Origin: a virus
Taxonomy: Duplodnaviria; Heunggongvirae; Uroviricota; Caudoviricetes
Virus record (IMG/VR): IMGVR_UViG_2690316346_000009
Strand: one strand, 5' to 3'
Length of the DNA stretch: 15,179 nucleotides
The position numbers are program-made. Below, in pieces: positions 3,001-6,000 of the stretch (the stretch's first letter is position 1; each line of letters begins with the position of its first letter).

Positions 3001-6000
3001 CCGTTTCTGGCTGTGCATTCCTTCAGGGTAATAATCAGCATCCCTGACACCTGCCGCTGCCAGTTTCTGCCCGATGGTATTAACAAGCCCCGGACGCAAT
3101 AACCCCGCCTGGTAGAGACGCACCCGATAGCGTCCGTCCGGTACGATTTGCAGCTTATCCAGTTCGGCAAGTTGTTGTTCTCCAAGCCAGACAGGAGGCA
3201 CGCTGTCGCCAGCCAGTCGCCCGTCCTGTTCCTGCCACTGCTTCGCATGTGCCCACGCATCATTACCCGCAAAAATGATGACTTCCGTCATTTTGTCACG
3301 CGGCTGGTGTTTTAAATTTGGCGCTTTTTTCATTTCTGCTCTCTCCACGCGGCAATCATGTTTTTTAGTTCCTGTAGTTTTTTATCAACATCCATACATG
3401 ACACATGGTTATTTCTGGAAAGCGGGATTTCCCGCCTGAATCTGCTAATAAAGATCTCCACGTTCAGCGAACTATGAAATGAATAGCCATCACGAATAAA
3501 ATACACACGGTCAAACATCAGTTCTTTTACCGTTACTCTGTTACCGTTCTTATCCAGATAAATAGCGCCGGGGATAATTTTGGGGTGTGCATAACCGCTG
3601 GCAGTCAAGCCAGATAAATACGTTCTCATGATTATTTATCTCAGATTTGAATCAGTATTCGCTTTCTCTATGGCATTTAATGCATCTGTGGCATTTTCAA
3701 TGGTGCACCGTAACGAAATATCAAACTGCCCAAGCATTGCCAGTAACAAGCCAATATTACCCATGTCAATGCGCATAGCCTTTTCGTCATATTCCTCATT
3801 TTCTGACGCATGCCACATCAGGCTACCAATTGACGCAACAGCCATTGATATATTGTCAGTAGCCCCATCCGCAGCGGAATAAACCTTTTTAGCAATATCA
3901 TGCTCACAGTTAAAATGCGGATTAATCAGGTACTGGTAATTGGTCATGTCAGGCATGGCACACCTCCTGACGAATACGGGCGGCGAATACAGCAACACAA
4001 CCTGACGGGCAACGGTTACGCGCTTCGCGTTCCGTCCAGGCGGTTACGTGGATGATTTGAGATTCTCCGGCACTCAGGGCCAGAAAACGCCACACAAAGG
4101 CCGTTTGTGTGTGTACAAGGTGTGGTATATGATTTACGGCAACCATAACGGCTCCTCGTTTACGTTGTTGGTTAGAAGCCCTGCGAGTGGTAACGACACT
4201 TGCGGGGCTTCGTCGTTTCAATTGCTGAATTGCATGTATCAGCACTTGTGGTATTCACATTACATTTAGGTGAATACCATTTCAAGTCTTTTTTGGTATT
4301 CACTTTTGTATTACACTGCATCCCGTTATTAATGGGAGGTGCAAACATGTCCAGGAGTTCTGTTAACAATAAGTCACAGCAACTGAATGCCAGATTTCCA
4401 CATGAAGTAGTGAGTGGCATTGAGGCATCCCTACAGCCAGGGGAAACTAAAGCGAATTTTATAGTTACGGCTGTACGCGGTGAGATCGCCAGGCGCCAGG
4501 CAGAAGGAAGTGGAGAAAATCCCCTTGTGTCTTCACTGGATGCCCTAGCTAATGTCGAACAAATCGGCATCAAGGCAGCGGAGGAAATCGGGCAGCTTAT
4601 CACCGTTGCACGCGAAGAACTCCAGCGCCGCAAGGCCAAAGAATCAGAATAATCACTATCAGCGCCGTGGTGTGAGGAACTCCGGCGCATTGCTTTACAG
4701 GCGCACACAATGACCAACGAAGAATCAACCAAAAAAACATCACCTGCACGAAAAAGACGACGCAGAAAGAAAGAGCATGAATCAGAACGATTCGCGCCGT
4801 GTTCTTTTGCCCTTGAGAAGTACCTTAAAGAATACTCATCAAAGGAGAGAGCTTCGCAGTTATGGCAACGCACTGAAACAGACTGATAGCATTGCCCACC
4901 AGCCTGATAGCGGCTATCATTGACATGCTTATGTTTAGTGTTTCCAAACTGGCGACCGCCCCAGGTCGCCTTTGTTTTATGTGTCATATGCTCCCCTTTA
5001 CACTGCCTTACCTGAATTAATGCGATCCCGGCTTTTAACCCATTCCATAACCTCGGACAGCAGCCACCCTACAGAACGACCGCCCAGATTAAGACGTGAC
5101 GGAAAGCGCCCTTTTTTCTCCAGTTCGTAACGTGTAGTGCGGCACACTCCAGTTAACTTACGACATTCATCCTCACGGATTACGCGATCTTCATTTATTT
5201 CACGCATACAAAAACCTACATAAAAATTACGTATATAAACTTTTCTCTTAGCTGTAGATATATGAGATCGGATATTACTTAGATTCTTTTTCACCTCTTA
5301 AATTAAAAACACAACCATGCTGGTAATGACTCCAACTTATTGATAGTGTTTTATGTTCAGATAATGCCCGATGACTTTGTCATGCAGCTCCACCGATTTT
5401 GAGAACGACAGCGACTTCCGTCCCAGCCGTGCCAGGTGCTGCCTCAGATTCAGGTTATGCCGCTCAATTCGCTGCGTATATCGCTTGCTGATTACGTGCA
5501 GCTTTCCCTTCAGGCGGGATTCATACAGCGGCCAGCCATCCGTCATCCATATCACCACGTCAAAGGGTGACAGCAGGCTCATAAGACGCCCCAGCGTCGC
5601 CATAGTGCGTTCACCGAATACGTGCGCAACAACCGTCTTCCGGAGACTGTCATACGCGTAAAACAGCCAGCGCTGGCGCGATTTAGCCCCGACATAGCCC
5701 CACTGTTCGTCCATTTCCGCGCAGACGATGACGTCACTGCCCGGCTGTATGCGCGAGGTTACCGACTGCGGCCTGAGTTTTTTAAGTGACGTAAAATCGT
5801 GTTGAGGCCAACGCCCATAATGCGTGCAGTTGCCCGGCATCCAACGCCATTCATGGCCATATCAATGATTTTCTGGTGCGTACCGGGTTGAGAAGCGGTG
5901 TAAGTGAACTGCAGTTGCCATGTTTTACGGCAGTGAGAGCAGAGATAGCGCTGATGTCCGGCAGTGCTTTTGCCGTTACGCACCACCCCGTCAGTAGCTG

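What the first reader, a model, noticed from the sequence alone, without database searches (positions are those of the whole stretch)
4710..4886. Conserved small basic ORF missed by the ORF track, co-transcribed with the RHH regulator
Both modules encode a 58-59 aa protein with an Arg/Lys-rich stretch (KRRRRK) and a conserved core ERFAPCSFALEK. The frame is maintained despite a small length difference, and each ORF lies between the RHH stop and a hairpin terminator. Neither copy has a strong Shine-Dalgarno sequence, so coding status is not certain. I considered a toxin-antitoxin pair with the RHH protein, but the small size and lack of a toxin-like motif do not support that.
Basis: seen in the sequence. 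Interest (0 to 1): 0.4.

Follow-up and report, generated by a model that had tools for sequence, protein, structure and literature searches.

The report
Small conserved protein in satellite switch
The 58-codon reading frame is very probably a real small protein gene of a phage-parasitic island (PICI) of E. coli/Shigella, already catalogued as a hypothetical protein with no known function; it is read off the strand opposite a long reading frame that the island also keeps open.

Summary
4710-4886(+) encodes 58 aa and 7130-7309(+) a 59-aa copy. Each lies 57 nt after a YlcI/YnfO regulator gene (ribbon-helix-helix, RHH, suggested by sequence pattern only) and before an intrinsic terminator.

The ORF is already catalogued: PHROG 21027 and RefSeq "hypothetical protein", also in the model island EcCICFT073. 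The family is confined to E. coli/Shigella PICI satellites.

Coding is well supported. The ORF is intact in 34/34 distinct DNA versions. dN/dS is 0.27 in the first 44 codons. The motif F-A-L-E-x-F-L-K survives at about 40% DNA identity. ATG and an upstream CAGG are invariant. The last ~14 codons are unconstrained.

The opposite strand carries a 271-348-codon frame that starts 10 nt after alpA, shares wobble positions with the small ORF, and is stop-free in every locus examined. It resembles phage P4 eta/kil. The small-ORF core is nevertheless better conserved in its own frame (28/28 pairs).

The predicted protein has a disordered basic segment and one amphipathic helix. The same allele occurs with at least 11 regulator alleles, so its partner should be invariant. 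Function is unknown; my best guess is an accessory factor of the island's immunity transcript. Interest is modest.

The parts
4710..4886 (+). Small ORF, module 1 (58 aa). It has a disordered Lys/Arg-rich N-terminal part, a conserved core ESERFAPCSFALEKYLKEY, and a variable tail from about codon 45.
   Evidence: (phrog_21027, E 7.8e-13)
7130..7309 (+). Small ORF, module 2 (59 aa), 63% identical to module 1.
   Evidence: phrog_21027, E 5.2e-15
4347..4652 (+). Upstream cistron, module 1: YlcI/YnfO-family protein of 101 aa with an RHH-like sequence pattern. GGGAGG lies 7 nt before the ATG.
   Evidence: (NF041551, E 1.3e-16, above cutoff)
6767..7072 (+). Upstream cistron, module 2: YlcI/YnfO-family protein of 101 aa, with a different N-terminal (DNA-reading) allele.
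   Evidence: (NF041551, E 4.7e-20)
4653..4709 (+). Conserved 57-nt spacer. It holds a possible hairpin (4662-4688), the invariant CAGG (4698-4701), and then the ATG.
   Evidence: hairpin inconclusive
4951..4979 (+). Intrinsic terminator of the + strand unit, module 1 (GGCGACCGCCCCAGGTCGCC then TTTGTTTTAT). A compensatory stem variant occurs in L085.
7377..7405 (+). Intrinsic terminator of the + strand unit, module 2.
4172..4987 (-). Long antisense (eta-like) ORF, module 1, 271 codons. Its ATG lies 10 nt after the alpA stop, behind AGGGGAG. It runs antisense through the terminator, the small ORF, the spacer, the YlcI gene and the operators, and stops 25 nt before the Icd-like ATG.
6367..7413 (-). 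Long antisense (eta-like) ORF, module 2, 348 codons from the ATG at 7413. It runs in frame into the Icd-like domain (residues 300-343).
   Evidence: (NF033153, E 7.6e-19)
4998..5207 (-). alpA (AlpA-family regulator), module 1, convergent with the small ORF.
   Evidence: PF05930, E 2.1e-16
7424..7648 (-). alpA, module 2.
   Evidence: PF05930, E 4.8e-16
3949..4146 (-). Icd-like (P4 Kil-like) gene, module 1, divergent from the YlcI/small-ORF unit.
   Evidence: (NF033153, E 1.1e-17)
4249..4303 (.). Operator-like array, module 1: three copies of TGGTATTCAC (direct, inverted, direct) between the divergent genes.
6665..6749 (.). Operator-like array, module 2: four TGTAAG/CTTACA sites. It overlaps a minus-strand promoter-like site, TTGACA-17-TAAAGT (6705..6677).

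Best explanation
The ORF is a genuine small protein gene. It is the second cistron of the + strand 'immunity-side' transcript of a PICI-type phage satellite: promoter and operator array, then the YlcI/YnfO regulator (RHH-like), then a 57-nt spacer, then the small ORF, then an intrinsic terminator.

This whole unit lies antisense inside the 5' part of a long ORF that begins right after alpA and ends in, or just before, the Icd/Kil-like gene. That arrangement is the counterpart of phage P4 vis-eta-kil.

The product has a disordered Lys/Arg-rich segment and one amphipathic helix carrying the family motif F-A-L-[ED]-x-[FY]-L-K. The motif and net basic charge are conserved, but the position of the basic cluster is not. 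The same small-ORF allele travels with many regulator, Icd and AlpA alleles.

From this I infer that the helix docks on an invariant partner, either a host protein or a constant satellite part, and that the basic segment contacts nucleic acid or an acidic surface. The most likely role is an accessory factor made together with the repressor in the uninduced state. It would either help keep the alpA-eta-icd-primase operon silent or neutralise leaky Icd/Kil.

Shown here: ORF conservation, sense-frame selection, the anatomy of the transcription unit, and the mosaic linkage.
Inferred: translation, the partner and the role.

My sub-probabilities:
- translated gene: 0.85
- co-transcribed with the regulator: 0.8
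- regulatory or immunity-accessory role: 0.4
- any specific partner: 0.15 or less
For: ORF integrity. The ORF is intact in 34/34 distinct DNA versions, and in divergent relatives from L084, L085, L086, L087, L089 and L093.

Selection.
- Nei-Gojobori dN/dS over codons 1-44 is 0.27 in the sense frame, against 0.45 in the best other frame and 0.70-1.24 in the rest.
- Third-position changes make up 42 of 78 distinct single-base differences in the core.
- The sense translation is more conserved than the antisense translation in 59/66 pairs over the N-terminus plus core.
- It is also more conserved in 28/28 pairs over the motif, including L092a at 35-50% nucleotide identity.

Initiation signals. CAGG and ATG are invariant in 16 divergent versions of the initiation region.

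Transcription unit. A terminator follows directly in both modules, with a compensatory stem change in L085.

Family. Both copies match PHROG 21027, E 1e-13 to 1e-15. RefSeq annotates the ORF in PEC122, XH992 and CFT073. Paralogous arrays of 2-4 small ORFs with the same motif occur in L092 and L099.

Structure. The AlphaFold model has residues 1-23 without secondary structure and a helix at 29-56, with pLDDT 84-87 in the helix.

Charge. pI is 9.7-10.5 in 8 of 10 variants. The basic cluster is N-terminal in most and C-terminal in L084 and L092a.

Linkage. One small-ORF allele is combined with at least 11 regulator N-terminal alleles, 2 Icd types and at least 4 AlpA types.
Against: - There is no direct evidence of translation, and only a 3-4-nt Shine-Dalgarno-like element.
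- The antisense frame shares the wobble position. Single-base changes that discriminate the two frames are nearly balanced: 9 are silent only in the sense frame and 7 only in the antisense frame.
- The last ~14 codons show no codon periodicity, with dN/dS 0.6. Frameshifted tails exist as rare variants.
- PGAP leaves the ORF unannotated, or calls the antisense ORF instead, in many genomes.
- The family is narrow: roughly 8 plausible 50%-identity cluster representatives (by my reading of the 10 hits) among 1.84 billion. The sequences are therefore related and the pair counts are not independent.
- Nothing found here identifies a partner or an activity. There is no Pfam, NCBIfam, PADLOC or PDB match.
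Confidence: 0.6

Rival explanations
1. The small ORF is not translated. Its conservation is a by-product of the opposite strand or of RNA function. Under this reading the region is kept because the eta-like ORF must stay open, and because the + strand RNA acts as a long antisense RNA against the 5' part of the alpA-eta transcript. The + strand frame then merely happens to be open.
For: - The antisense frame is stop-free in all loci examined, over 242-805 codons.
- The chance of no stop in the parts outside the + strand genes is 0.0017 (module 1) and 0.0007 (module 2) by shuffling.
- The two frames share wobble positions, and the discriminating substitutions are 9 versus 7.
- The Shine-Dalgarno element is weak.
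- The tail is unconstrained.
- The + strand RNA would end about 8 nt from the eta-like start codon.
Against: - The sense translation is more conserved than the antisense one in 28/28 pairs over the motif and 59/66 pairs overall. Substitutions are conservative in the sense frame (K/R, F/Y, A/S/T/V) but radical in the antisense frame.
- F-A-L-E-x-F-L persists in L092a and in the four L099 paralogues, with different codons and near-random DNA identity.
- Given the small protein's own amino acids, an open antisense frame over it is expected 65-85% of the time, so that openness says nothing against sense coding.
- ATG and CAGG are invariant.
- Where it is not overlapped, the antisense product shows no amino-acid-level constraint: spacer changes fall 3, 5 and 3 on the three codon positions (read).
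Confidence: 0.13
2. It is an arginine-rich-motif RNA-binding peptide, working like the N proteins of lambdoid phages or like HIV Tat/Rev. It would bind the conserved hairpin in the 57-nt spacer or another RNA, and so alter termination, processing or sense-antisense pairing.
For: - A run such as RKRRRRKK lies in a segment predicted to be disordered.
- The spacer hairpin is 93% paired across 16 versions. It has one compensatory C-G to U-A change and G-U pairs that form only in the + strand RNA.
- The system is built around convergent transcription and termination.
Against: - The hairpin is not significant. 29/500 shuffles reach the observed pairing, 190/500 reach the compensatory count, and folding z-scores are -0.2 to -1.45.
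- The loop has 7-17 nt and is not a GNRA-like pentaloop.
- The basic cluster is missing from the N-terminus in L084, L092a and L092b, whereas the helix motif is what is conserved.
- There is no family match to N proteins.
Confidence: 0.08
3. It is an antidote or modulator linked to cell division. The helix F-A-L-E-K-[FY]-L-K would imitate the FtsZ C-terminal peptide (E. coli L-D-I-P-A-F-L-R-K, quoted from memory), or would bind the neighbouring Icd/Kil-like division inhibitor. Either way it would protect the host from leaky Icd/Kil while the island is silent.
For: - The hydrophobic and basic pattern is the same at five positions, read by eye.
- The divergent neighbour belongs to the Icd-like family of division inhibitors, as does the P4 Kil end of eta.
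- The small ORF sits on the repressor-side transcript.
- Loci with several Icd-like genes also have several small ORFs (L002, L099).
Against: - It is a six-residue resemblance with no statistics behind it.
- The FtsZ proline is absent.
- The small-ORF allele does not co-vary with the Icd type.
- No complex prediction or binding data could be obtained here.
Confidence: 0.07
4. It is the toxin of a type II toxin-antitoxin pair, with the RHH-like protein as antitoxin.
For: - The gene order, an RHH-like gene followed by a small basic protein in one operon, is the usual order for such pairs.
- The regulator gives a weak hit to Rv0623-like PSK_trans_fac, E 0.018, below the cutoff.
Against: - No toxin family matches in Pfam, NCBIfam or PADLOC.
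- The model is a single helix with no globular fold.
- The small ORF stays constant while the regulator allele varies, and short regulator forms lack any C-terminal toxin-binding extension.
- In L085 and L099 small ORFs occur without an adjacent intact regulator gene.
Confidence: 0.04

Closest known systems
Phage P4 left-operon immunity region (vis - eta/kil - CI RNA)
   Same: - An AlpA/Vis homologue is followed at once by a long ORF whose 3' end is an Icd/Kil-like domain. The P4 eta ORF hits NF033153 at E 1.4e-20, and the window module 2 ORF at E 7.6e-19.
- The long ORF starts at the stop of the upstream gene.
- An internal promoter-like site lies upstream of the Icd-like start.
- In P4, translation of eta prevents termination of the late-promoter transcript (summary in PMC10111431).
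   Different: - No CI/C4-type RNA was found by Rfam in the window.
- In its place, the opposite strand of the eta-like ORF carries a protein-coding cassette (RHH-like regulator plus small ORF) with its own operators and terminator.
- In module 1 the long ORF is out of frame with the Icd-like gene and stops 25 nt before it.
PHROG 21027 / RefSeq hypothetical proteins WP_157918692.1 and WP_000130015.1
   Same: This is the same protein family. Both window copies match the profile. The EcCICFT073 copy has the sequence of the commonest allele.
   Different: These entries carry no function, and the antisense context is not recorded.
Immunity regions with a small RHH repressor and antisense control: P22 immI (arc-ant-sar) and P1 immI (c4-icd-ant). 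Quoted from memory.
   Same: - A small RHH-type repressor heads a short operon.
- Antisense RNA relationships control a neighbouring operon.
- An Icd-type gene is part of the controlled operon (P1).
   Different: Here the second cistron is a 58-aa helix peptide rather than an antirepressor, and the antisense partner is a whole mRNA embedded in a translated ORF.
Arginine-rich-motif peptides (lambda N, HIV Tat/Rev)
   Same: A short, disordered Arg/Lys run, a small protein, and a setting of termination control.
   Different: No family match, no boxB-type hairpin, and the basic run is not conserved in position.
Gram-negative PICI regulation by AlpA (EcCICFT073; Fillol-Salom et al. 2018, PMC6092414)
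   Same: It is the same kind of element with the same gene order. EcCICFT073 itself carries the cassette at L101 8243-8653.
   Different: That work found AlpA to be an activator and left open whether any repressor exists. The oppositely oriented cassette is not mentioned in the passages of that paper retrieved.

Membership tests
PHROG 21027 (uncharacterised small proteins of prophage-like elements) | Significant match to the family profile over most of its length | tested here: met
   E 7.8e-13 (residues 4-54) and 5.2e-15 (residues 5-46) against a 65-position profile
Protein-coding gene (general criteria) | ORF integrity and an excess of synonymous change in its own frame across homologues | tested here: met
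   34/34 intact. dN/dS is 0.27 against 0.45 or more in other frames. The sense frame is better conserved than the antisense frame in 28/28 motif pairs.
Protein-coding gene (general criteria) | Recognisable translation initiation region | tested here: inconclusive
   Only CAGG lies 8 nt upstream. It is weak, but it is invariant, as is the ATG.
Protein-coding gene (general criteria) | Detected translation product | not testable with these tools
   No ribosome-profiling or proteome data were available. A full-text search for the peptide found no paper.
Type II toxin-antitoxin pair (RHH antitoxin plus toxin) | Second gene belongs to a toxin family or fold | tested here: not met
   No Pfam, NCBIfam or PADLOC hit. 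The model is a single helix.
Type II toxin-antitoxin pair (RHH antitoxin plus toxin) | Antitoxin and toxin co-vary as a cognate pair | tested here: not met
   One small-ORF allele occurs with at least 11 regulator alleles.
Lambda N-type antiterminators | N-terminal arginine-rich motif plus a cognate boxB hairpin with a GNRA-like pentaloop | tested here: not met
   A basic run is present in most variants but absent from the N-terminus in three. The spacer hairpin has a 7-17-nt loop and no significant support.
Lambda N-type antiterminators | Sequence family membership | tested here: not met
   No Pfam or PHROG match to N proteins
YlcI/YnfO family (upstream cistron) | Match to NF041551 above the curated cutoff | tested here: met
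   60.3 and 71.4 bits against a cutoff of 30
Ribbon-helix-helix fold (upstream cistron) | Strand-helix-helix dimer fold | tested here: inconclusive
   The single-sequence model has pLDDT 64, with helices at 19-28 and 35-52 and the N-terminus not modelled as a strand. There is only a sub-threshold Pfam hit to an RHH-type family and no PDB sequence match.
P4 eta/kil-type nested ORF (antisense strand) | Long ORF starting at the stop of the AlpA/Vis gene | tested here: met
   The ATG lies 10 nt after the alpA stop, behind AGGGGAG, in both modules. The P4 ORF 8168..8812 overlaps the vis stop.
P4 eta/kil-type nested ORF (antisense strand) | Icd/Kil-like domain at the 3' end of the long ORF | tested here: inconclusive
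   Met in module 2 and in 11 of 17 distinct loci. In module 1 and five other loci the ORF stops just before the Icd-like gene or overlaps its start.
P4 eta/kil-type nested ORF (antisense strand) | CI/C4-type immunity RNA with seqA/seqC targets | tested here: not met
   No Rfam match in the region at E up to 1
P4 eta/kil-type nested ORF (antisense strand) | Translation of the long ORF prevents Rho-dependent termination | not testable with these tools
   The only indirect support is that the frame is kept open (P about 0.001 per module) without visible amino-acid constraint in the spacer.

The most novel reading that the evidence does not exclude
The YlcI/YnfO regulator (RHH-like) plus small-ORF cassette is the missing immunity or repressor module of Gram-negative PICIs, and it is a true case of protein genes on both strands of the same DNA.

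On one strand, a hypervariable repressor with allele-specific operators and an invariant small effector peptide are made. Their mRNA is at the same time a roughly 630-nt antisense RNA ending about 8 nt from the eta-like start codon.

On the other strand, a long eta-like ORF is kept open only so that ribosomes can carry AlpA-driven transcripts through to icd and primase.

In this reading the small peptide is the constant effector of the switch. It could, for example, neutralise Icd/Kil or act on a host factor such as the division or termination machinery.
Probability: 0.2. Interest if true: 0.7.

Novelty: new member of a known kind. Interest (0 to 1): 0.38.

Why it matters
On its own the ORF is one more uncharacterised small protein, and it is already present in RefSeq and PHROGs.

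It matters for where it sits. The regulatory core of Gram-negative PICIs has a known activator (AlpA), but whether a repressor exists was left open in 2018 (PMC6092414).

The cassette containing this ORF is present in the model island EcCICFT073. It is oriented against the AlpA-driven operon and lies inside an ORF that resembles P4 eta.

If the small protein and its upstream regulator prove to be the silencing side of the switch, that would explain how these widespread satellites stay quiet. It would also give a clean, genetically tractable example of overlapping antisense genes under different kinds of selection.

There is a practical point too. Automatic annotation is inconsistent at this locus: it calls either the two small + strand genes or a 250-430-aa antisense 'Icd-like' protein.

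Tried and rejected
- Rfam scan of the whole window at E up to 1: nothing in the region, so no C4/CI-type or other known RNA.
- Pfam, NCBIfam and PADLOC profiles and a PDB sequence search for the small protein: no usable hit. The only Pfam line is ARPP-2 at E 0.048, far below its cutoff.
- tblastn against 50,697 phage records: no match, so the ORF is not a gene of bona fide phages in that collection.
- Exhaustive HMMER search of 1.84 billion representatives: only 10 hits. By my reading, about 8 are plausible family members and two are repetitive proteins with spurious matches.
- Genome-contig scan: a single locus, in Shigella flexneri.
- Spacer hairpin as a structured RNA: pair counts and folding energies are not better than controls, so I left it as inconclusive.
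- Stop-codon read-through fusing the regulator to the small ORF: considered because the two are always in the same frame. Rejected because module 2, L084 and L088 have a second in-frame stop in the spacer. The shared frame is better explained by the antisense ORF having to stay open.
- Counting substitutions that are silent in only one of the two overlapping frames: 9 versus 7, not decisive.
- BLASTP of P4 Kil against the window Icd-like protein: no alignment. The relationship rests on both matching NF033153.
- Single-sequence structure model of the regulator: too poor (pLDDT 64) to confirm the RHH fold, so no fold search was run. A fold search on a single-helix model of the small protein would be meaningless and was not run.
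- Full-text search for the peptide motif: no paper.
- Attempt to read Forti et al. 1999: the paper is not held.
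Full report
WHAT IS THERE

The window holds two copies of the regulatory region of a PICI-type phage satellite.
- Module 1 runs leftward from alpA (4998-5207, minus strand). It is cut off on the right by an IS1 copy (5322-6079) and a run of N (6080-6090).
- Module 2 (6091 to about 9823) is complete on the right. It has alpA (7424-7648), a DUF6387 gene and an integrase, followed by chromosomal rcnA/rcnB and fimbrial genes.
- Closely related annotated loci in E. coli show the same order: integrase, AlpA-family regulator, [YlcI/YnfO gene and a small hypothetical gene on the other strand], Icd-like gene, hypothetical gene, DUF4222 gene, primase. 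Some continue into a capsid module.
- The model island EcCICFT073 has the same arrangement.

THE OBSERVATION

4710-4886(+) encodes 58 aa, and 7130-7309(+) encodes a 59-aa protein that is 63% identical. The differences include a 6-nt and a 3-nt indel, so the frame is kept.

Each ORF begins exactly 57 nt after the stop of a 101-aa gene that matches the YlcI/YnfO family above its curated cutoff. Each is followed by a GC-rich hairpin with a T-run. No promoter-like or terminator-like site lies between the two cistrons.

The ORF track missed them because they are shorter than 60 aa. The description of a weak ribosome-binding site is correct: only CAGG lies 8 nt upstream. However, that CAGG and the ATG are invariant in 16 divergent versions of an otherwise variable stretch.

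IS IT ALREADY KNOWN?

Yes, as a sequence.
- Both copies match PHROG 21027, a family of unknown function.
- RefSeq annotates the homologue as 'hypothetical protein' in several genomes, including CFT073.
- All 24 clusters found with the single sequence, and all 53 found with a wider profile, are unnamed proteins of E. coli or Shigella without Pfam domains.
- An exhaustive search of 1.84 billion representatives gave 10 hits. About 8 look like real members to me.
- There is no match in 50,697 phage records.
- No function is attached anywhere, and no paper contains the motif.

IS IT CODING? THE CONFOUNDER

The strand opposite the small ORF carries a long open frame: 4172-4987 (271 codons) in module 1, and 6367-7413 (348 codons from the ATG) in module 2.

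Its codons share their third position with the codons of the small ORF. Silent changes therefore tend to be silent on both strands, and any indel that preserves one frame preserves the other.

This frame is stop-free over the small ORF in all 34 distinct versions. In every locus examined it stays open across 242-805 codons: from just after alpA, through the terminator, the small ORF, the spacer, the regulator gene and the operator region. In 11 of 17 distinct loci it runs in frame into the Icd-like domain. L092 and L099 have 607 and 621 open codons.

Given the small protein's own amino acids, an open antisense frame over it is expected 65-85% of the time. In the roughly 115 codons not covered by the + strand genes, however, the chance of no stop is 0.0017 and 0.0007 for the two modules. 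The antisense frame is therefore kept open by selection, and automatic annotation often calls it a 250-430-aa 'Icd-like' or hypothetical protein.

IS IT CODING? THE TESTS

- Over codons 1-44, dN/dS is 0.27 in the sense frame, 0.45 in the wobble-sharing antisense frame and 0.70-1.24 in the others.
- Single-base changes that are silent on only one strand are nearly balanced, 9 versus 7, so that test alone decides nothing.
- Amino-acid conservation does discriminate. The sense translation scores higher than the antisense one in 59 of 66 pairs over the N-terminus and core (BLOSUM 3.50 versus 2.88 per site). It also scores higher in 28 of 28 pairs over the 15-codon motif.
- More distant relatives keep F-A-L-[ED]-x-F-[LV] with different codons while the antisense translation is unrelated. 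These are L092a, at 35-50% nucleotide identity to the others, and the four tandem small ORFs of L099.
- The pairs are not phylogenetically independent, so these counts are not probabilities, but the direction is uniform.
- The last ~14 codons behave differently. They show no codon periodicity, dN/dS is 0.6, several unrelated tail types exist, and rare frameshifted tails occur. The functional part is therefore roughly residues 1-44.

I put the probability that this is a translated gene at about 0.85.

WHAT THE OPPOSITE-STRAND ORF IS

In both modules its ATG lies 10 nt after the alpA stop, behind AGGGGAG.

In phage P4 the ORF after the AlpA homologue Vis is eta (8168..8812 in NC_001609). Its C-terminus matches the Icd-like model NF033153 at E 1.4e-20. 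The window's module 2 ORF matches the same model at E 7.6e-19.

The P4 mechanism is summarised in PMC10111431. Kil is the nested 3' part of eta. A constitutive internal promoter gives transcripts that terminate early through the CI RNA. [quoted passage not shown]

The window's long ORF fits this anatomy, including a promoter-like site inside the operator array of module 2. Its sequence shows no amino-acid-level constraint where it is not overlapped: spacer changes fall 3, 5 and 3 on the three codon positions. That fits 'openness is what is selected'.

What differs from P4 is that Rfam finds no CI/C4-type RNA. A protein-coding cassette sits on the other strand instead. The constant 57-nt spacing, in the same frame, between the regulator gene and the small ORF is explained by this constraint. 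It is not explained by read-through, because several spacers contain a second in-frame stop.

WHAT THE SMALL PROTEIN LOOKS LIKE

- The AlphaFold model (18-sequence alignment, mean pLDDT 71) has no secondary structure in residues 1-23 and one helix at 29-56, with pLDDT 84-87.
- Hydrophobic residues F28, C31, L35, Y38/L39, Y42 and W52 lie on one face of the helix (my reading of the model).
- Eight of ten variants have pI 9.7-10.5. The basic cluster is N-terminal in most but C-terminal in L084 and L092a.
- The invariant feature is the helix motif F-A-L-[ED]-x-[FY]-L-K.

LINKAGE

Across 56 distinct gene combinations, one small-ORF allele occurs with at least 11 different N-terminal alleles of the regulator, both Icd types and at least four AlpA types.

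The two window modules have different operator repeats: three copies of TGGTATTCAC against four TGTAAG/CTTACA sites. This matches their different regulator alleles.

The regulator therefore behaves like an immunity-specificity determinant, and the small protein like a constant component. Its partner should be invariant: a host protein, a conserved satellite part, or a conserved RNA.

The small ORF also persists next to a degenerate regulator remnant (L085) and in arrays of two to four paralogues (L092, L099).

MECHANISM

Shown: the ORF, its conservation, sense-frame selection on residues 1-44, its place between regulator and terminator, its antisense position in the eta-like ORF, and its independence of regulator allele.

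Inferred: it is translated from the regulator's transcript in the uninduced state, and it acts through its helix on an invariant partner. It would either reinforce silencing of the alpA-eta-icd-primase operon or buffer leaky Icd/Kil.

I considered three more specific readings:
- An arginine-rich RNA-binding peptide acting on the spacer hairpin. The hairpin has 93% pairing and one compensatory change but is not better than controls.
- A mimic of the FtsZ C-terminal peptide, or an Icd/Kil binder. This rests on a pattern resemblance only.
- A toxin partnered with the RHH-like protein. No toxin features were found and there is no co-variation.

None has positive support beyond resemblance.

The non-coding rival, in which conservation is due only to the antisense ORF and an antisense-RNA role of the transcript, keeps about 0.13. 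The + strand RNA may well have that role in addition to coding, since it would end about 8 nt from the eta-like start codon.

VERDICT

The ORF is, however, an already catalogued hypothetical protein of a narrow family, and its function remains unknown.

The more interesting result is the context: two + strand genes nested antisense in an eta-like ORF that is kept open, in the regulatory core of Gram-negative PICIs, including the model island. I score interest at 0.38 for the ORF itself. The broader reading is given as the novel case.

Noticed in passing
window 4172-4987 (-) and 6367-7413 (-): A long ORF antisense to the regulator gene and the small ORF starts 10 nt after alpA. It is stop-free in every locus examined (242-805 codons) and in most runs into the Icd-like domain. 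It matches the P4 eta/kil arrangement. RefSeq annotation alternates between this ORF and the two small + strand genes.
   Followed up: yes
window 4347-4500 and 6767-6920; loci L004-L094: The N-terminal (DNA-reading) part of the YlcI/YnfO regulator is hypervariable, with at least 11 alleles next to one and the same small-ORF allele. Long (101 aa) and short (59 aa) forms both occur. This is the pattern expected of an immunity-specificity repressor.
   Followed up: partly
window 4249-4303 and 6665-6749: Module-specific operator-like repeat arrays lie between the divergent regulator and Icd-like genes: three copies of TGGTATTCAC, and four TGTAAG/CTTACA sites, spaced 21-24 nt. In module 2 they overlap a minus-strand promoter-like site, TTGACA-17-TAAAGT (6705..6677).
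   Followed up: partly
window 4890-4904 and 7313-7327: A 15-nt block, CATTGCCCACCAGCC, directly after the small-ORF stop is almost invariant across divergent loci. It is partly duplicated in the 65-aa variants (L085, L089, L093). In module 1 it coincides with the -35 of a weak + strand promoter-like match (4892-4920). Its function is unknown.
   Followed up: no
L099 1528-2517; L092 875-1756; L085 5016-6143: Some islands carry two to four tandem small ORFs with the same F-A-L-[ED]-x-F-L motif but otherwise unrelated sequence, each preceded by a copy of the conserved spacer. In L099 no YlcI/YnfO gene is annotated next to them.
   Followed up: partly
window 1990; 6080-6090; 400-1989 versus 1991-3580: The window looks like a scaffold of three pieces: a single N at 1990 and a run of N at 6080-6090. 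The first piece (400-1989) repeats the start of the second at near identity within the primase gene, apart from a divergent stretch at 1465-1672. The 'two modules' may therefore come from two islands joined through IS1 during assembly.
   Followed up: partly
window 5322-6079 and 15129-15179: IS1 copies are present (DDE_Tnp_IS1, E 5.9e-78). One sits about 115 nt beyond the start of alpA in module 1, where the integrase would be expected. Another begins at the right end of the window.
   Followed up: partly
window 7752-8606 (-): A DUF6387 gene lies between the integrase and alpA of module 2, in an accessory-gene position. It has no PADLOC match.
   Followed up: no
L101 7526-9053 (E. coli CFT073, EcCICFT073): The model Gram-negative PICI carries the full cassette: the small ORF (commonest allele), the 57-nt spacer, a short YlcI/YnfO gene and a 433-codon open antisense frame ending in the Icd-like domain. 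The 'ORF3' reporter of Fillol-Salom et al. 2018 probably lies in this antisense ORF.
   Followed up: partly
L013 about 3280-3320 (EDL933-type loci): Loci with a different right flank have an unrelated hairpin plus T-run (GCGGCTCC-ATTTC-GGGGCCGC-TTTTTTT) at the same place after the small ORF. I read this from the alignment; the terminator scan did not list it.
   Followed up: no
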